The position numbers and the translations under genes were made by a program. A stretch of 64,000 nt of DNA from a virus (lineage: Duplodnaviria > Heunggongvirae > Uroviricota > Caudoviricetes). Shown piece after piece: positions 1 to 32,822 of this stretch. Positions within the stretch are counted from its first letter, which is position 1; the number at the start of each line of letters is the position of its first letter. The notes under the pieces were generated by a model, which saw nothing but the letters and a program-made list of their open reading frames with translations, ran no database searches and was not told the origin of the DNA. Where the stretch lies: IMG/VR virus record IMGVR_UViG_2877948078_000003. The stretch is one strand, 5' to 3'.

Positions 1-588
1 ATGAATACAGCTATAACTTTTTCTAACGAGTCACCAAAAGTCTTTTTCAAAGATGGTCGCTTGGTAACCACCTCTCAAGCTGTTGCCGACTACTTCGACA
101 AACAACATAAACACGTTTTAGCTAAGATTGACGCACTCGACTGCTCTCCTGAATTTACATCAGCCAACTTTTCGGCTGATGTTCAAACTGTCGAAATTGG
201 CAACTGCGCAGAACGTGAATCACGATGCTACCTGATCACAAAAGACGGCTTCATGTTCCTCGTGATGGGATTTACTGGCAAAAAAGCAGCCAGACTAAAA
301 GAAGCTTACATTGCAAAATTTAACGCAATGGAAGAAGTACTCCACAAACAACCACAAACAACCACAAACAACCACAAACAACCACCAACAGCACAAAACT
401 CCCCACCCCCAAATGATGGGTGCGCATTATTGATCCACTTCGATAAACACGGGCAGGTCGAATTCACGGAAAAAGTACCCGCCTATGCGATGGTATGCAC
501 TCTGGAACGGTTTAAATTTTATCTGGAGCAACACGGCTGGATCGTTGCCCGTAAAGAACAACTGGTAGAACGGTTGATGCGGTTGTAA
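1..588 (+). CDS. Rha-family phage regulatory protein (antirepressor-like)
   Basis: 195-aa ORF; N-terminal segment VTTSQAVADYFDKQHKHVLAKI fits the Rha-domain pattern as I remember it; C-terminal part unassigned. Confidence 0.6.
   Translation: MNTAITFSNESPKVFFKDGRLVTTSQAVADYFDKQHKHVLAKIDALDCSPEFTSANFSADVQTVEIGNCAERESRCYLITKDGFMFLVMGFTGKKAARLKEAYIAKFNAMEEVLHKQPQTTTNNHKQPPTAQNSPPPNDGCALLIHFDKHGQVEFTEKVPAYAMVCTLERFKFYLEQHGWIVARKEQLVERLMRL
342..391. repeat. 10-bp tandem repeat CCACAAACAA, four perfect copies plus one degenerate, inside the Rha-like CDS
   Basis: Read directly at 342-391; encodes the HKQPQTTTNNHKQPP linker. Confidence 0.9.
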
Positions 589-1367: not shown

Positions 1368-3290
1368 TCACGATATACGCTGAAACAGCCCCACACAGTA
1401 AGGGTATATTGAACTGACCTGAAGTGGACTACAGACCCGCCATGTTCCTGGCAATGTATTACCGGTTAATGTGGCTGCTTTCTGAGAGCCCAGTTGAATG
1501 CTACATTCTCTCAGTTTACTTCCCGCAAGCACGGCACCTGCGGCATATTTTTCACTGTTACTTATACTGGCCTGAGCAAAGACAAATGCCCCAACAGCAT
1601 GCAAACCACCTGCCGGTGAGCCAGCTGGTCCCTGTGGGCCTGTTGCCCCCCGGGGACCGGGATCACCTTTATCCCCTTTAGCTCCCTGTGGCCCGGTTGC
1701 GCCGGTGGCACCTTTCTCACCCTTTGCCCCGGGAGCGCCAGTATCCCCTTTTGGTCCCTGTGGCCCGGTTGCGCCGGTGGCTCCTTTCTCACCCTTTGCC
1801 CCGGGAGCGCCAGTATCCCCCTTTGGTCCCTGAGGGCCGGGATCACCTTTATCCCCTTTTGCTCCCTGTGGCCCGGTTGCGCCGGTGGCTCCTTTCTCAC
1901 CTTTTGCCCCGGGAGCGCCAGTATCCCCCTTTGGTCCCTGAACGCCCCCCGGCCCAGCCGGACCTGCTGGCCCCGTGTCCCCTTTATCTCCTTTCGGACC
2001 GGGAACACCACCTCCTGCAGCAGCCTCTTCTGCCTTTGTTTTCGCTTCATTTGCCACATCCATTGCCGCCTTCACGGCCTTCGGCGTGGCTGCCTTTGTT
2101 TCGTCATTACTGTTAGTATCACTGCTTAACTGCACCACGCCTTTCTGCGTCGTGCTGGCATCCCGCTGGCTGACCGTATCCGGTTTGTTCTTTGTGCTGT
2201 AATCCACCCGCCAGTGGAAATACTGTGTGTCGCCGTAAACCGTACAGGTACAGACCGTGCCATTAATAAACCCCGTTGCACCGTATTCGCCAATGGTGAC
2301 CCGGACTATGGCTGCCTCATACTTCCCCATCACCTCAATGACACAGCCACCCAGATTAAGTTTTCCCGGTCCGACATCCGTGATGACCTTATTGAATCCC
2401 GCATGCAGTGATGCCTTCATCATCCAGTAAGGCTGGTCAAATGCCCCTTTGGCTTTCAGCCAGGCGACAAACTCGGTCGTGGTCCATTCACCGGCCCCCG
2501 TATGAATGTCCCGCCCGTATACTCTGGCTGCTCCCACAGTGTTCAGAAACTGCACCTTATCCGGGATATCGTCACCGTTTTTCGCTTTCTCCAGGCATCC
2601 GTCCGCTTTGCCCATTGCCGCTTTCACCGCTTTCGGGGTGGCTGCCTTCGTTTCATCATCACTGTCCGTTGCGCTGCTTAACTGCACAATTCCCTTCTGT
2701 GCCGTCGTCGCATCCGGTCCTCCCGGCTCGCCTTTTTCGCCCTTCTCTCCCCGTTCACCTTTCACACCCTGAAGCCCCTGCGGCCCCCTCTCACCACGCT
2801 CACCCTTTGGCCCCCGCTCGCCGGTATCGCCTTTTGGCCCGGGAATACCCTGTGGCCCCGTGTCTCCCTTATCCCCCTTCGGTCCCCTCGCATTCTCTGC
2901 CCGTTTCTTCGCTTCCTCTGCACTCGCCGCTGACGCTTCCGCACGTTTCAGGATTTCCGCGGCCACCGCTTCCAGCTCTGCAAGGGCTTTCGGGTAATAC
3001 TGTGCGTCCTCCAGGTCCATCAGAAATTTATTCAGCGTTCCCGGTGCAGAGTCCGCCTTCACCAGAATGTCACCCACATATGACGGCGCGTACCCTTCCG
3101 TGTTCAGCGTCACCCGGTACAGACCCGGCTCAACATCCATACTGTAACTGCCGGTTTCCCCCGGCTGACCATACGCCACCGTGGTGACAATCACCGTCTC
3201 CGTTGTGCGTCGCGCTTTCAGCTCTATCGTGCATCCCGGTACCGGCTTACCGGCCCCGTCCTTCAGCACACCAGAAATTTTAACCGTCAT
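1368..3290 (-). CDS. stf: Side tail fibre protein with collagen-like Gly-X-Y repeats, probably 3'-truncated or recombined
   Basis: N-terminus [16 protein letters not shown] and the [24 protein letters not shown] motif resemble lambda Stf; long [11 protein letters not shown] repeats; last ~70 aa look non-fibre-like and no tail fibre assembly gene follows. Confidence 0.7.
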
Positions 3291-3336: not shown

Positions 3337-3440
3337 CAGGACAGTGTAACTTTACGTTTCCTCAGACGCAGTTCACCCCATAAGGTGGATGAACATGCTC
3401 ATTATACCAATATTTACAGAAGATAAAGCTGTATCTGCCG

Positions 3441-4064
3441 TCAGAAACGGTATCCAATCCCAACAATAAACGCATCCGTTCGCCAGTCACCATGACCGGC
3501 CACTTCGTACGCAAGATCAACCGCCACCGTATCCGCCAGATTAAACTGAAGTCCTGCCCCCCATGCCAGCGTCAGATGACGTGCAGAATGACCATCACTG
3601 GCAGTGGTGGTCACCCTGACATCCCCCGGTGTCACTTCATCACGCCGGTAATCCTGAACACTGTCAGACCAGCGGGTGTGCGCCATCCCGGCCATGCCAT
3701 AAAGGCTGAGCTGCTCACTGACCTGCCAGACCGGCCCCGCCATCAGGCTCACATAACGGCCACGCAGACTTTCATAATGAAATGCCTTATCCCCGGTCAT
3801 CGTGGTTCTGCTCTTTTTCGCAGAGGCGTAACTCAGCGAGGCTATGCCGCCCAGATGGTCCGTGAATTCATAACGGTATTTCACGTTGATCCCTTTTAAA
3901 TCACCTGTACGGGCACCGGTACCGGACAATACCGGCACGCCGCCCGGGTGAACCTGAGCATATCCCACGGAAAATGCACCGTGTCCGCCTGCAGCCTGTG
4001 CAGGAAAAGTCATTACTGCCGGCAGGGTGGTAAAAAATAAAATGGCTCCGTATAAATACCGCAT
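3441..4064 (-). CDS. lom: Lom outer membrane protein (Ail/Lom family)
   Basis: Strong similarity to lambda Lom over the whole length (NVKYRYEF, AWGAGLQFN, GDWRTD, FIVGIGYRF); signal peptide; start at internal ATG 4064 with AAGAGG SD. Confidence 0.9.
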   Translation of the reverse strand: MRYLYGAILFFTTLPAVMTFPAQAAGGHGAFSVGYAQVHPGGVPVLSGTGARTGDLKGINVKYRYEFTDHLGGIASLSYASAKKSRTTMTGDKAFHYESLRGRYVSLMAGPVWQVSEQLSLYGMAGMAHTRWSDSVQDYRRDEVTPGDVRVTTTASDGHSARHLTLAWGAGLQFNLADTVAVDLAYEVAGHGDWRTDAFIVGIGYRF

Positions 4065-7900: not shown

Positions 7901-8031
7901 GTGTCATGACGGAATAAAATTTCTGAAATTCTTCACATTTCCGGCAATTGCCTGTAGCCGTAATAATGACGCTGCGTTACATTTTTGATGCCTGAAAAAT
8001 AACTCCATAACGTTAATCTTCATCGTTCTCT

Positions 8032-8065
8032 CCCGCAGCTCCGCTGATTCTGCGGGATTTTTTTA
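8032..8065 (+). terminator. Plus-strand intrinsic terminator hairpin, repeat unit 1
   Basis: CCCGCAG-CTCCGCTGATT-CTGCGGG followed by ATTTTTTT. Confidence 0.45.
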
Positions 8066-8273
8066 TCCCTTAAACCCGGCACGATGTTATCTGTCTTCTT
8101 CCACAGATACCCGCCTGGCTTCCGCTCCCCCGCTACCGGATAAAAAGTCTGAATTTATTCACATTTCTGCAAATTACCTGTAGCCACAATAATGACGCTG
8201 CGTTACATTTTTTGCGGGTAAATAAAAATAAAACGCCAACAGGTTAGTCAACATCGTTCTCTTCCCGCAGCAC

Positions 8274-8305
8274 GGAGTACTGCGGGATTTTTTTATCCCC
8301 TGAAC
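8274..8305 (+). terminator. Plus-strand intrinsic terminator hairpin, repeat unit 2
   Basis: CCCGCAG-CACGGAGTA-CTGCGGG followed by ATTTTTTT. Confidence 0.45.
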
Positions 8306-8482
8306 CCGGCATGATGCCTTCTGTCCTCTGCCACCGATATCCGGCCCCTCCCTTCCCGTGAATAAAAATTCTGAGTTTATTCACATTTCCGCACACTGAC
8401 TGTAGTGCTCATAATCACGCTGCGTTACAGTTCATCTGCCAGAATAATGAAAAATTCCTTAAAGTTAATCTTCGTATCTCTT

Positions 8483-29727: not shown

Positions 29728-31818
29728 ATGTATGTCATTGCAAAAGAACTGATTGGCGCGCCCGGAATGCCTGCTACAACAAAAGGTATTCGCCAGGCAT
29801 TACAACGTTACGTACAAGGGAAAAGCTGTTGTTCCCGTCGTCGCTCAGGCTCTAAAGCAACTGAATACAGCATCGACTGTTTACCTGAAGTGACGCAGCA
29901 GGCATTACGTGAACGTTATGCCCTGCAACTGATGACGCAAAAAGCCGATGAATCACCGGCTCCGGTGGTGACAAAGGCCAGACGCTCATCTGACGTGGTT
30001 GATGCGGTGGAGGCATATCGCGGATCACCACAACTGATGGTCGAACGCCTCAATGCCCTGACTGAAAACCAGCGCCAGGTGGCTGATGCACGAATCGCGA
30101 TCGTCAGCGAAGTGATGAAAGTCGCGCAACAACCCGGTTTCAGCTGCGCGAAGGCTATCCGGTTTATCGTTGACAACCTGGCACGTTCACAGCTGGACGA
30201 GCGCATTGTGGCAATGGTTGAGACGGCGAACGCCAAAAAGGGAAACAGCCGTGCGTTGAGTGAAATCACGCTGAAGCGATGGATTGCGGCCTTTAACAAG
30301 GCACAGAACGCCGCTGAACGCCTGCTTTTACTGGCACCGGGTAAACGCCAGGAAATAAAAGCCGAAGATATTAACTGGCTGCCCGAATTTCTGGCGCAGT
30401 ATCGCCAGTCAAACGGCCGACCAATGACCGAGGCTTACGAGGATTTTGTTGCTGAATGGCAGCACCGGCACGCTGATGAGCCTTATATGCTCGATATCAT
30501 GCCCTCTTATGACACCATTCGCCGCGCAATGAAGAAACTGCCGGAAGTGGTGAAACAAAAAGGCCGGGTGACAGGCAGTGAATACCGTCAGCTTGAGGGA
30601 TTCACGCGCCGCGACTGGTCCAGAATGCCGGTGAATTATGTCTGGATTGGTGACGGTCACGGCATGAAGATGAAATGCAGGCACCCGGTTCACGGGCGGC
30701 CATTTGCACCGGAAGTGACCTTTGTTATCGACGGTGGCACGCGCTTTGTGGTGGGCTGGAGCCTTGACCTGGCTGAAAATGTTTTCGCCGTAGCCGGTGC
30801 CATACAGCACGGTATTCGCCATCACGGCAAACCGTTTCTGTATTACTCGGATAACGGTTCGGGGGAAACCGCCGACATCCTGGATAAGGAGGTTGTGGGG
30901 ATCCTGCCGCGCCTGGGGATTAATCACCCGACAGGGATTGCCGGTAATCCGCAGGGGCGAGGCATTATCGAACGGCTTAACCGCACATTACCGATGCGCA
31001 TAGCCCGTAAATACCGCACCTATTTCGGGAAAGGTGCAGATCGCGAGACGTTACGCAAAACCAACCGCGATTTACGCTCGGCATTCACTGCCCTGCAACA
31101 GGACAAACGGCTGAACGCCCGGCAGCAGTCAGCGATGCGTGATTTACCGTCCTGGCCTGAACTGATTGATGCCATCCGTGATGGTGTCGAGTGGTACAAC
31201 AACCGGCCGCACAGCGGATTGCCGGTGAAACCGAACGGTAAGCATTACAGCCCGGCGGAATACAGGAAAAAACGCCTGGCAGAAGAGGACACGGAAATTG
31301 AATGGCTGTCCGATGTTGAGCTGCGGGATATGTTCCGGCCGATGGTGGAACGCCCGGTAAGACGCTGTGAAATACGCTGGCTGAATAATATTTACTACGC
31401 GCCCGAGCTGCGTGATGAGCATGGCCGTAAGGTGCTTATCAGCTATGACATTCATGATGCCGAACGAATTACCGTGCGTCGCCTGGATGGCAGCGTGATT
31501 TGCGAGGCGGTATGGGACGGCAATAAACGCGAAGCCTTCCCGGTCAGCGCGGAATACTACAAACAGCAGCAACGCCTTAAAGGCATGCGTAAACGCGCAG
31601 AGGAAAAAATCCGTGATGCCGAGGATGAGGTGGTCAACGTGCTGGAGCACAAGCCGCAAGAGCCCTGGCTGGAAAACATCTATCGCCCGGTAGGTAATAC
31701 GGTGGCCGTTCAGCAACCTGCCGTTGATGATGAGCCTGATGAAGAATACGAGCGTAATTTCCAGCGGGGATTGCAGTTGCTCGAAGCGAAATTAAAAGAA
31801 AATGACCCGCTGGCCTGA
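29728..31818 (+). CDS. A: Mu-type DDE transposase A
   Basis: 696 aa; position after ner; overall resemblance to MuA. Confidence 0.85.
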   Translation: MYVIAKELIGAPGMPATTKGIRQALQRYVQGKSCCSRRRSGSKATEYSIDCLPEVTQQALRERYALQLMTQKADESPAPVVTKARRSSDVVDAVEAYRGSPQLMVERLNALTENQRQVADARIAIVSEVMKVAQQPGFSCAKAIRFIVDNLARSQLDERIVAMVETANAKKGNSRALSEITLKRWIAAFNKAQNAAERLLLLAPGKRQEIKAEDINWLPEFLAQYRQSNGRPMTEAYEDFVAEWQHRHADEPYMLDIMPSYDTIRRAMKKLPEVVKQKGRVTGSEYRQLEGFTRRDWSRMPVNYVWIGDGHGMKMKCRHPVHGRPFAPEVTFVIDGGTRFVVGWSLDLAENVFAVAGAIQHGIRHHGKPFLYYSDNGSGETADILDKEVVGILPRLGINHPTGIAGNPQGRGIIERLNRTLPMRIARKYRTYFGKGADRETLRKTNRDLRSAFTALQQDKRLNARQQSAMRDLPSWPELIDAIRDGVEWYNNRPHSGLPVKPNGKHYSPAEYRKKRLAEEDTEIEWLSDVELRDMFRPMVERPVRRCEIRWLNNIYYAPELRDEHGRKVLISYDIHDAERITVRRLDGSVICEAVWDGNKREAFPVSAEYYKQQQRLKGMRKRAEEKIRDAEDEVVNVLEHKPQEPWLENIYRPVGNTVAVQQPAVDDEPDEEYERNFQRGLQLLEAKLKENDPLA

Positions 31819-31889: not shown

Positions 31890-32822
31890 ATGACTGATAT
31901 TAACGATGTAATCAAGACCATTGATGAACTTATTGATGGCGGCGTACTGACGCAGTATGCCATCGCCAGAGAGGCGGGAATTTCCGACGGCACATTATCG
32001 GCTTTCCGTAAGGGAAAATATAAAGGCGATAACGCTGCTGTGGCTGCTTCCCTGCGCTCCTGGTATGAGAACTGGAATAAACAAAGCGCACTGCCGGAAC
32101 CGCCGCAGTTTGTGGAAACGCAGACAGTCCAGGAGCTGCGCGCACTGTTTCAGGCGGTTCGTCTGATGGGCTGTATTAACGTTATTGTGGGCGTACCGGG
32201 TGTGGGTAAAACGGCCACCGCCCGTAATTACTGCCAGGAGCAACCAAACACCTGGATGATCACCCTGTCTCCCGCGCATTCCAGCGTCACGGAGTGTCTG
32301 CTGGAGCTGGCCGATGCGCTGGGGATTGATTACACCCGCGCGAACAAAGGGGCATTATCCCGCGCCATCCGCCGTCGCCTGATGGGAACGCGCGGACTGG
32401 TGATTGTGGATGAGGCGGATCATCTTGGTATTGACGGTCTGGAGCAACTCCGGGCAATTCAGGACGCCACGGGGATCGGGATGGTGCTTATTGGTAACCC
32501 GCGCGGACTGTTTAAAGGTGGACGCCGCGCCTTTGATGATTTATCGCGCCTGTTCAGCCGTCTTGCCCGTACAAAACAACTTCGCAGGGCTAAAAAGGCG
32601 GATGTGCTGGCTATTGCCAGGGCATGGGGTATCAGTGGTGAGGCCGAGCTGGCTGTCATGCAGGCTATTGCTGAAAAACCGGGAGCATTACGTGTTCTGA
32701 CACATACGCTTAACCAGGCGTGGCTCACAGCCAGCGGTGAAGGCGCGGCGCTGACAGAAAAACATATTAATGCGGCCTTTAAAGAGGTTTACACCAACCC
32801 TGAATTACTCTCGCAGGTGTGA
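31890..32822 (+). CDS. B: Mu B-like AAA+ ATPase (transposition target DNA activator)
   Basis: Walker A GVPGVGKT, Walker B VIVDEADH; directly after the transposase. Confidence 0.85.
   Translation: MTDINDVIKTIDELIDGGVLTQYAIAREAGISDGTLSAFRKGKYKGDNAAVAASLRSWYENWNKQSALPEPPQFVETQTVQELRALFQAVRLMGCINVIVGVPGVGKTATARNYCQEQPNTWMITLSPAHSSVTECLLELADALGIDYTRANKGALSRAIRRRLMGTRGLVIVDEADHLGIDGLEQLRAIQDATGIGMVLIGNPRGLFKGGRRAFDDLSRLFSRLARTKQLRRAKKADVLAIARAWGISGEAELAVMQAIAEKPGALRVLTHTLNQAWLTASGEGAALTEKHINAAFKEVYTNPELLSQV

What the first reader, a model, noticed from the sequence alone, without database searches (positions are those of the whole stretch)
342..391. Out-of-frame 10-bp tandem repeat inside the Rha-like gene
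Four perfect and one degenerate copy of CCACAAACAA lie in the linker of the Rha-like CDS. The unit is not a multiple of three, so gain or loss of a copy by slipped-strand mispairing would frameshift the C-terminal domain, a possible on/off switch for an antirepressor-like regulator. The copy number is low, so the switching rate may be negligible.
Basis: seen in the sequence. Interest (0 to 1): 0.4.

Follow-up and report, generated by a model that had tools for sequence, protein, structure and literature searches.

The report
Frame-breaking 10-bp repeat in prophage rha
A 10-base repeat in the linker of a prophage regulator gene really does gain and lose copies among near-identical E. coli strains, repeatedly breaking and restoring the reading frame, but it looks more like a mutational hot spot than a purpose-built genetic switch.

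Summary
Window 342-381 holds four perfect CCACAAACAA units and 382-391 a degenerate fifth (CCACCAACAG). They lie inside a 195-aa Rha-family gene (1-588, +), in a disordered linker between two folded domains.

Public E. coli assemblies carry the same allele with 2, 3, 4 or 5 units. Only 2 and 5 units keep the frame. With 3 or 4 units the protein stops after the N-terminal DNA-binding domain, and RefSeq marks those genes "frameshifted".

Six sets of loci that are identical over 3.16 kb still differ in unit number. Strains EH41 and EH53 have no SNP in 20 kb of chromosomal flank yet differ by one unit. Two hybrid units point to slippage in other registers.

About 87% of roughly 870 contigs with this allele are out of frame. 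No allele with six or more units was found. The repeat occurs in only 12 of 5426 complete genomes. The common repeat-free allele showed no length change in 44 of 44 sampled genomes.

Most likely this is a young, slippage-prone repeat that acts as a slow, reversible frameshift hot spot. An adaptive phase-variation switch is not shown.

The parts
1..588 (+). Rha-family regulator gene, 195 aa in this window (the in-frame, 5-unit allele). It sits at the tail-fibre end of a lambdoid prophage integrated in ompW. An Ash-like ORF lies just upstream of the window and overlaps the start codon (ATGA).
   Evidence: ORF list. RefSeq annotation of an identical locus, WP_047642936.1 'Rha family transcriptional regulator'. 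PHROG 995 covers both the Ash-like ORF and Rha.
67..336 (+). Coding region of the Phage_pRha domain (aa 23-112). It is retained in every repeat allele, in frame or not.
   Evidence: Pfam PF09669, E=2.8e-26, 92.3 bits against a cut-off of 29.9. The AlphaFold model folds aa 10-116 with pLDDT about 70-85.
342..381 (+). Four perfect tandem units of CCACAAACAA. This is the variable part: 1, 2, 3 or 4 perfect units in public genomes.
382..391 (+). Degenerate terminal unit CCACCAACAG. Hybrid forms (CCACAAACAG in JNEC-KY175, CCACCAACAA in SRR25501288) mark slippage in other registers.
349..411 (+). Coding region of the disordered inter-domain linker (aa 117-137). Besides the repeat it holds an interrupted C-run (401-410), which is an uninterrupted C9 in another allele.
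   Evidence: pLDDT below 50 for aa 117-137. Linker alignment. C9 in L005.
414..416 (+). TGA that ends the 131-aa product when the tract has 3 units (2 perfect plus the terminal one).
   Evidence: Allele translations.
431..433 (+). TGA that ends the 140-aa product when the tract has 4 units. It overlaps the in-frame TTG at 430-432 (TTGA).
   Evidence: Allele translations. Sequence.
430..588 (+). C-terminal domain coding region (AlphaFold fold aa 141-194). In 4-unit alleles the source annotation calls it a separate 52-aa ORF starting at this TTG. Otherwise it is lost from the product in out-of-frame alleles. The same domain is joined to an ORF6N N-domain in other prophages at the same site.
   Evidence: fold. 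(L056, ORF 3420-3578, 52 aa). (ORF6N fusions). (phrog_25059 and phrog_2379 C-terminus).

Best explanation
This is a young, lineage-specific tandem repeat of a 10-bp unit in the linker-coding part of a prophage Rha-family gene.

Proposed origin and mechanism. The starting sequence was an imperfect two-unit repeat, CCACAAACAA-CCACCAACAG, which gives an in-frame 185-aa protein. Replication slippage between the 10-bp direct repeats adds or removes whole units. The tract now exists with 2, 3, 4 or 5 units.

Consequences for the protein.
- With 2 or 5 units the ribosome reads through into the C-terminal domain, giving 185 or 195 aa.
- With 3 units translation stops at the TGA at 414-416 (131 aa).
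- With 4 units it stops at the TGA at 431-433 (140 aa).
- Both truncated products keep the N-terminal Rha DNA-binding domain but are uncoupled from the C-terminal domain.

The site therefore behaves as a reversible mutational toggle between a fused two-domain protein and a truncated or split one.

Shown: the repeat, the allele series, the frame consequences, and recurrent changes on identical genetic backgrounds.

Inferred:
- Slippage is the mechanism.
- The rate is roughly 1e-8 to 1e-6 per generation, well below classical phase variation.
- The toggle is a by-product hot spot in a dispensable or decaying prophage-end gene, not an evolved contingency locus.
For: - Allele series. The indels are exact 10-bp units in otherwise identical sequence. 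RefSeq annotates the 3- and 4-unit genes as frameshifted pseudogenes.
- Population counts by exact protein look-up: 185 aa (2 units) 9 contigs, 131 aa (3 units) 337, 140 aa (4 units) 421, 195 aa (5 units) 107. The products predicted for 1 unit and for 6-10 units are absent.
- Recurrence. Among 41 non-redundant loci, six haplotypes identical over 3156 aligned bases each carry two different unit numbers. Twelve of 21 zero-SNP pairs differ in unit number. A neighbour-joining tree needs at least 19 changes, against 11 SNP sites in 1440 prophage-side bases.
- EH41 (5 units) and EH53 (4 units) have no difference in the 20 kb of chromosomal flank.
- Hybrid units in L019 and L061 fit slippage in shifted registers.
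- The 2-unit allele occurs on both main prophage-side haplotypes, consistent with it being ancestral.
- Control. The repeat-free allele was exactly 558 bp, with no indel, in 44 of 44 evenly sampled complete genomes. Nine of the 12 repeat-bearing complete genomes are frameshifted.
- Against an evolved switch. The repeat is absent from homologues and found in only 12 of 5426 complete genomes. The neighbouring genes are pseudogene fragments. No long tracts exist.
Against: - The loci analysed for haplotypes were retrieved allele by allele. The sample is therefore enriched for allele diversity, and the event-to-SNP ratio is biased upwards.
- Recombination between prophages could place different tracts on identical flanks, although that would need very short conversion tracts.
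- The frame-restoring 5-unit allele is fairly common (107 contigs) and sits beside 4-unit alleles on three haplotypes. No 6-unit allele was seen. This pattern could reflect selection for the intact gene in some settings.
- The repeat-free allele is conserved intact in hundreds of genomes, so the gene is not obviously junk.
- No within-culture data exist, so the true switching rate is unknown.
Confidence: 0.72

Rival explanations
1. It is an evolved contingency locus. On this view the repeat is kept because stochastic ON/OFF (or fused/split) switching of the Rha regulator benefits the prophage or the host, for example by varying induction, superinfection exclusion or host gene control. This would be the same logic as repeat-mediated phase variation in Haemophilus or Neisseria.
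For: - The unit length is out of frame and the tract lies inside an ORF.
- Both ON (2 and 5 units) and OFF (3 and 4 units) states occur in nature and interconvert on identical backgrounds.
- The frame was restored at 5 units and that allele reached 107 contigs.
- No 6-unit allele was found despite frequent changes between 4 and 5 units.
- The intact gene is conserved elsewhere.
Against: - The tract has only 2-5 units, whereas classical loci carry long tracts (own knowledge).
- The estimated rate is orders of magnitude below 1e-5 per generation (inference).
- The three sequenced UC4224-derived genomes all have 4 units.
- The repeat is restricted to one recent sublineage and absent from all homologues.
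- About 87% of contigs are OFF.
- The neighbouring genes are decayed.
- No phenotype is known.
Confidence: 0.15
2. The frameshift alleles are not null. They would convert a fused two-domain protein into two separately made polypeptides. In the 4-unit allele the stop of the N-domain ORF overlaps a TTG that opens a 52-aa ORF for the C-domain (TTGA), which would allow termination-reinitiation. In the 3-unit allele a +1 slip at CCC-AAA-TGA, or reinitiation at the same TTG, would do likewise.
For: - The TTGA overlap can be read in the sequence.
- The 52-aa ORF is called in the source annotation of a 4-unit genome (L056 3420-3578).
- The C-domain folds on its own in the model and occurs fused to a different N-domain, ORF6N, elsewhere.
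- The upstream Ash-like ORF and rha are themselves a split, ATGA-coupled version of fused Ash-Rha proteins.
Against: - TTG is a weak start and I saw no convincing Shine-Dalgarno sequence upstream of it.
- The only X_XXY_YYZ heptamer (CCCAAAT at 408) is in register with the full-length frame, not with a frame that needs rescue.
- There is no homopolymer long enough for transcriptional slippage.
- No expression data exist.
Confidence: 0.1
3. The repeat is a DNA-level element: phased protein-binding sites (iterons) or intrinsically bent DNA with a 10-bp helical period. On this view its coding consequences are incidental.
For: The period equals one helical turn and the unit is A-rich.
Against: - There is no other exact copy of the unit in 64 kb, and near-copies are at the chance level: 10 found, 5.5 expected, 5 of 100 shuffles reach 10.
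- The repeat is absent from most alleles of the same gene at the same site.
- No promoter-like site lies in or next to it.
- Matches in other genomes are in unrelated taxa only.
Confidence: 0.02
4. The copy-number differences are sequencing or assembly artefacts.
For: Repeats can be mis-assembled in principle.
Against: - The whole tract is at most 50 bp, shorter than any read.
- Each allele recurs in tens to hundreds of independent assemblies from different laboratories and platforms, including closed genomes.
- The differences are always exact 10-bp units.
Confidence: 0.01

Closest known systems
Simple-sequence contingency loci (for example tetranucleotide repeats in Haemophilus influenzae lic and mod genes, the CTCTT pentamer in Neisseria opa genes); own knowledge
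   Same: A tandem repeat inside an ORF whose unit is not a multiple of three. Slippage changes the unit number and shifts the frame. Both in-frame and out-of-frame alleles are found among close relatives.
   Different: This tract has only 2-5 units of a long (10-bp) unit, not tens of short units. No high-frequency switching within a clone has been shown. The repeat is confined to one recent sublineage of a prophage gene in E. coli, a species whose known phase variation runs mostly through DNA inversion and Dam methylation (own knowledge). The product is an intracellular regulator, not a surface structure or a methyltransferase.
VNTR loci used for MLVA typing of E. coli O157:H7 and other STEC; own knowledge
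   Same: Short tandem arrays, some in prophage or ORF sequence, whose copy number differs between very closely related isolates.
   Different: To my knowledge, MLVA loci that lie inside genes generally have units that are multiples of three. The tail-fibre collagen-like array in this same window behaves that way: gene lengths across strains all differ by multiples of 9. The rha array breaks the frame with each step.
Rha of phage phi80 and its P22 relative (Henthorn and Friedman 1995, own knowledge); Pfam PF09669 Phage_pRha
   Same: [quoted passage not shown]
   Different: The C-terminal domain here belongs to no Pfam family. The gene sits at the attachment-site end of the prophage, beyond the tail fibre. 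No function has been tested for this protein. No repeat-containing linker is described for Rha proteins.
Fused Ash-Rha regulators (PHROG 995; Rha/Ash proteins next to cI in Eru6, Eru7 and Eru9 Stx phages, PMC8951638)
   Same: One PHROG profile covers the upstream Ash-like ORF (profile positions 18-92) and this Rha protein (positions 101-300). Fused 230-284-aa homologues exist in Salmonella and other genera.
   Different: Here Ash and Rha are separate, overlapping ORFs (ATGA). In the repeat lineage the Ash-like ORF is annotated at only 44-58 aa. The gene is at the prophage end, not beside cI.
ORF6N-domain proteins at the same ompW prophage end
   Same: They have the same genomic position and about 90% identical DNA for the C-terminal domain. 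Their linker is related (QKQPPATQNSP against HKQPPTAQNSP).
   Different: The N-terminal DNA-binding domain is different (ORF6N instead of pRha) and the 10-bp unit is not expanded. This shows the linker is a domain-shuffling junction.

Membership tests
Repeat-mediated phase-variable (contingency) locus | Tandem repeat tract within the ORF or promoter of the controlled gene | tested here: met
   Window 342-391 lies inside the ORF at 1-588.
Repeat-mediated phase-variable (contingency) locus | A change in unit number alters expression or reading frame (unit not a multiple of 3) | tested here: met
   The unit is 10 bp. Modelled and observed alleles give 185, 131, 140 and 195 aa for 2, 3, 4 and 5 units.
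Repeat-mediated phase-variable (contingency) locus | Unit number differs between closely related isolates, with both ON and OFF states | tested here: met
   Six identical 3.16-kb haplotypes each carry two unit numbers. EH41 and EH53 have no SNP in 20 kb of flank and differ by one unit.
Repeat-mediated phase-variable (contingency) locus | High-frequency (about 1e-5 or more per generation), reversible switching within a clonal population | not testable with these tools
   No read-level or culture data were available. Indirect estimate from events per SNP, using a substitution rate of about 2e-10 per bp per generation (own knowledge), is roughly 1e-8 to 1e-6. This is rough and biased by the sampling. 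Three UC4224-derived genomes share 4 units.
Repeat-mediated phase-variable (contingency) locus | A phenotype that switches with the tract and is subject to selection | not testable with these tools
   The function of this Rha protein is unknown. No literature on this locus was found.
Repeat-mediated phase-variable (contingency) locus | The repeat tract is maintained across the family or lineage rather than being a one-off | tested here: not met
   The repeat is absent from 17 aligned homologues. It is absent from about 435 complete genomes carrying the repeat-free allele, from the species representative genomes of Enterobacterales, and from the viral and metagenome collections.
Rha family (Pfam PF09669, Phage_pRha) | Match to the Phage_pRha profile above the curated gathering score | tested here: met
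   92.3 bits against 29.9, aa 23-112, profile positions 1-91 of 91. PHROG 518 'Rha-like transcriptional regulator', E=3.6e-42.
Rha family (Pfam PF09669, Phage_pRha) | Regulatory or anti-repressor activity | not testable with these tools
   Only annotation-level labels are available (PMC8951638).
VNTR (variable-number tandem repeat) locus | Head-to-tail array whose copy number is polymorphic in the population | tested here: met
   Alleles with 2, 3, 4 and 5 units in 9, 337, 421 and 107 contigs, verified at the DNA level in 44 loci.
Programmed ribosomal frameshift or transcriptional slippage site | Slippery heptamer in the register of the frame that needs shifting, or a long A or T homopolymer | tested here: not met
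   The only heptamer, CCCAAAT at 408, is in register with the full-length frame, where a -1 shift runs straight into TGA. The longest homopolymer is C5.

The most novel reading that the evidence does not exclude
A contingency locus caught at birth in E. coli. On this reading a decanucleotide repeat arose from an imperfect two-unit sequence in a prophage Rha regulator. It now toggles the protein between a fused two-domain form and a split form: the N-domain alone, plus a C-domain re-initiated at the TTGA overlap. This would give STEC lysogens heritable but reversible variation in a prophage regulatory function such as induction or superinfection control.
Probability: 0.1. Interest if true: 0.7.

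Novelty: new member of a known kind. Interest (0 to 1): 0.4.

Why it matters
Repeat-driven frameshift switching is textbook biology in Haemophilus, Neisseria and Helicobacter but is hardly documented in E. coli. Here the whole allele series is visible in public genomes: an ancestral 2-unit in-frame form, 3- and 4-unit frameshifted forms, and a 5-unit form with the frame restored. Changes recur on identical backgrounds. This gives a natural example of how a slippage-prone repeat is born and grows inside a gene.

There are two practical points.
- Pipelines label the 3- and 4-unit genes as frameshifted pseudogenes, although they are one slippage step from an intact or differently truncated gene.
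- The tract could serve as a fine-scale typing marker for STEC lineages that carry the ompW prophage.

If the frame state turned out to change prophage behaviour, it would also matter for how prophages are regulated in Shiga-toxin-producing strains.

Tried and rejected
- Chance or artefact: rejected.
- Dispersed motif or iteron idea: no other exact copies in the window, and near-copies at the chance level.
- Two-unit pattern in species representative genomes and in viral contigs: only unrelated taxa matched, with no Enterobacterales.
- Pattern with left flank in metagenome contigs: 0 matches.
- Alleles longer than 5 units: exact look-ups of the predicted 141, 150, 205, 151 and 160-aa products, and of the 1-unit 130-aa product, all came back absent.
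- Identity of the C-terminal domain: no Pfam family, no PDB sequence relative, and no significant Foldseek match in the PDB (best E=0.3). Only function-less PHROGs and the C-terminus of an 'anti-repressor' PHROG matched.
- Rfam over the whole window: no match at gathering scores.
- Promoter and terminator scan of 1-1400: nothing associated with the repeat. One terminator-like hairpin on the minus strand at 420-402 is within chance expectation for the region.
- Programmed frameshift or transcriptional slippage: no suitable motif.
- Literature: four searches found nothing on this repeat or this locus's Rha. Two promising titles matched only through 'rhamnose'.
- I first assumed the window was strain 2013C-3181. 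It is not. It matches that prophage only up to about 28.5 kb.

Full report
**1. The observation**

Window 342-381 is CCACAAACAA four times without a mismatch. Window 382-391 is CCACCAACAG, which matches the unit at 8 of 10 bases. Tandem Repeats Finder reports 342-390, period 10, 4.9 copies, 97% matches, score 91. It is the only short-period array in the 64-kb window.

The longest run of period-10 self-matches is 34 bases, against at most 11 in 100 shuffles. The expected number of 30-base runs is about 7e-14. The unit does not recur elsewhere in the window.

The tract lies in the ORF at 1-588 (+), 195 aa. Residues 23-112 of that ORF match Pfam Phage_pRha at 92.3 bits, against a gathering score of 29.9.

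An AlphaFold model built on 18 homologues gives three segments:
- a folded N-domain, aa 10-116;
- a segment with pLDDT below 50, aa 117-137;
- a small folded C-domain, aa 141-194.

The repeat encodes aa 115-131.

**2. Genomic setting**

An identical 1.3-kb stretch occurs in E. coli 2013C-3181. There the gene is the outermost gene of a lambdoid prophage integrated in ompW. The order is trpA-yciGFE, an ompW fragment, a short Ash-like ORF overlapping the rha start, rha, a DUF4376 pseudogene fragment, a DinI-like fragment, and then the tail fibre, lom and J on the other strand.

One PHROG profile (995) covers the Ash-like ORF and then Rha. Fused Ash-Rha proteins of 230-284 aa exist in other enterobacteria. 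The locus is therefore a split version of a three-part regulator.

Other prophages at the same site carry the same C-terminal domain behind a different N-domain, ORF6N. The linker is thus a domain-shuffling junction.

Rha domains are described as winged helix-turn-helix regulators with a suggested role in the lysis-lysogeny decision, and the Ash domain has no assigned function (PMC8951638). The function of this particular protein is unknown.

**3. Copy number in related genomes**

Among 5426 complete E. coli genomes, 12 carry the repeat allele:
- 3 with five units, in frame;
- 6 with four units;
- 3 with three units.

RefSeq annotates the four- and three-unit genes as 'frameshifted'. Reading the DNA shows that the differences are exact 10-bp units in otherwise identical sequence.

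I modelled the products for 1 to 10 units in all (0 to 9 perfect copies plus the terminal unit) and looked them up by exact sequence in a collection of about 15 billion proteins:

| Units in tract | Predicted product | Contigs found |
|---|---|---|
| 2 | 185 aa, in frame | 9 |
| 3 | 131 aa, truncated | 337 |
| 4 | 140 aa, truncated | 421 |
| 5 | 195 aa, in frame | 107 |
| 1, and 6 to 10 | various | 0 |

About 87% of the carrier contigs are therefore out of frame. Clonal sampling of outbreak lineages makes this a count of assemblies, not of independent events.

The common allele of the gene has no repeat at this position (CCACAAACGTCCTCCTGCAG, 185 aa). In an evenly spaced sample it was exactly 558 bp in 44 of 44 complete genomes. 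Aligned homologues have linkers of similar length and no repeat. The 10-aa insert KQPQTTTNNH is unique to this allele.

**4. Are the changes recurrent?**

I collected 44 loci: 10 complete genomes with 20-kb flanks and 34 places found by exact protein look-up. I removed the tract and aligned 2.2 kb upstream plus 0.65 kb downstream.

Among 41 non-redundant loci there are 77 SNP columns in 3156 ungapped columns, forming 28 haplotypes. Six haplotypes each contain two different unit numbers: 5 with 4 three times, 4 with 2 once, and 3 with 2 twice. Twelve of the 21 pairs with zero SNPs differ in unit number. A neighbour-joining tree needs at least 19 changes, or 24 single-unit steps. Only 11 SNP sites occur in the 1440 prophage-side columns.

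EH41 (5 units) and EH53 (4 units) have no difference in 20 kb of chromosomal flank. Apart from the repeat unit, their differences lie mostly in the prophage tail genes at about 24.8-29.8 kb of the locus.

Two alleles carry hybrid units: CCACAAACAG as the last unit in JNEC-KY175, and CCACCAACAA as the third unit in SRR25501288. Both changes sit exactly at the position that distinguishes the terminal unit, and each produces the other unit's base. Slippage in a shifted register predicts this. A random point mutation would rarely do it.

The 2-unit allele occurs on both main prophage-side haplotypes. It is the only form that could precede an expansion, so I take it as ancestral. Expansion then happened more than once.

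One caveat applies. The loci were retrieved allele by allele, so allele diversity is over-represented and the ratio of events to SNPs is inflated. The six identical-haplotype cases do not depend on that.

**5. Mechanism and rate**

The simplest reading is replication slippage between 10-bp direct repeats. The step from events to a rate is inference. At least 19 events at one site, against 11 substitutions in 1440 bases, gives a site rate on the order of a thousand times the per-base substitution rate. With about 2e-10 substitutions per base per generation in E. coli (own knowledge), this is roughly 1e-8 to 1e-6 per generation once the sampling bias is allowed for.

That is well above ordinary frameshift rates at a given site. 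It is well below the 1e-5 to 1e-2 typical of contingency loci (own knowledge).

**6. Consequences for the protein**

With 3 units translation ends at the TGA at 414-416. With 4 units it ends at the TGA at 431-433. Both products keep the whole Rha domain.

In the 4-unit allele the stop overlaps an in-frame TTG (TTGA at 430-433). That TTG opens a 52-aa ORF covering the C-domain, and one source annotation calls this ORF. Out-of-frame alleles might therefore yield two separate polypeptides rather than a null. I found no support beyond the sequence.

There is no slippery heptamer in a useful register and no long homopolymer.

**7. Switch or hot spot?**

For an evolved switch:
- the unit is out of frame;
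- both states occur and interconvert;
- the frame-restoring 5-unit allele is common and no 6-unit allele was found;
- the intact gene is conserved in other lineages.

Against an evolved switch:
- the tract is very short;
- it is restricted to one recent sublineage and is absent from homologues, from Enterobacterales species representatives, and from the viral and metagenome collections;
- the out-of-frame majority is large;
- the neighbouring genes are decayed;
- three derivatives of one strain share the same unit number;
- no phenotype is known.

I put about 0.72 on a slippage hot spot that acts as a slow, reversible frameshift toggle without being an adaptation. I put about 0.15 on true adaptive phase variation. 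The split-gene reading (about 0.1) is compatible with either.

**8. Comparison with known systems and novelty**

The site works like a repeat-mediated contingency locus. It meets the structural criteria and the polymorphism criterion. It fails the criterion of being maintained across a lineage. Rate and phenotype could not be tested.

It is equally a variable-number tandem repeat of the kind used for typing STEC, with one difference: each step breaks the frame. The collagen-like array in the tail-fibre gene of the same window changes only in multiples of 9 bases across the same strains.

I found no paper on this repeat. I class it as a new member of a known kind. Interest is moderate. The phenomenon is real and well resolved in public data, but the mechanism is familiar and a biological role is unproven.

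Noticed in passing
window 1662-1941, inside the tail-fibre gene 1368-3290 (-): Collagen-like (Gly-X-Y) tandem arrays with periods of 36, 72 and 108 bases. The homologous gene is 1851, 1860, 1896, 1932, 1968, 1995 or 2040 nt in related strains, and 1923 nt here. The differences are always multiples of 9, so this array varies in copy number but stays in frame. It is a useful contrast to the rha repeat.
   Followed up: partly
window 7912-8429: A 226-bp tandem repeat (2.3 copies, 76% matches) in the gap between the J gene and the tail assembly gene. In related strains this gap is about 690 or about 915 bases, so its copy number probably varies too. Rfam gave no match.
   Followed up: no
window about 28500-64000 (for example ORFs 29728-31818 and 31890-32822): The window matches the ompW lambdoid prophage of strain 2013C-3181 only up to about 28.5 kb. 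Beyond that lies a Mu-like prophage: a 696-aa ORF and a 310-aa ORF that look like a Mu transposase and its ATPase partner (my reading of the translations, no family search run), followed by large structural-size ORFs. It is 96-97% identical to regions annotated as 'inserted Bacteriophage Mu-like phage' in two Stx-converting phages (LC727895, LC727881). This is a phage inserted into a prophage.
   Followed up: partly
window 400-410; L005 at the equivalent position: Just downstream of the repeat the linker contains an interrupted C-run (CCCCACCCCC). In another allele (strain SA53-3) the run is an uninterrupted C9, a second potential slippage site in the same linker.
   Followed up: no
just upstream of window position 1 (L001 2870-3004; L004 2729-3004): An Ash-like ORF overlaps the rha start codon (ATGA). 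It is annotated at 44-58 aa in the repeat lineage and at 91 aa in others. Its longest annotated start is the TTG of a TTGACA hexamer, which looks more like a promoter -35 box than a start codon. Fused Ash-Rha proteins of 230-284 aa exist in Salmonella and other genera.
   Followed up: partly
L006, L007 and hits H63-H98 (the same ompW prophage end in other E. coli): The C-terminal domain of this Rha protein is found at about 90% DNA identity behind an ORF6N N-terminal domain instead of a pRha domain, at the same genomic position. This is a domain swap at the linker. The ORF6N gene of strain C5 is itself annotated as frameshifted.
   Followed up: partly
L011, L012, L014, L015, L016 (about 30.7-32.0 kb of each locus): In several strains that carry the same rha end, the prophage has a different (HK97-like) tail and head module. 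It includes an ompC porin gene between the tail genes. The att-proximal rha segment is therefore linked to at least two different structural modules.
   Followed up: no
L017 (STEC17-190) and L057: IS66-family insertions lie close to rha: between the DinI fragment and the tail-fibre gene in L017, and directly after the truncated rha in L057. This is further evidence that this prophage end is decaying.
   Followed up: no
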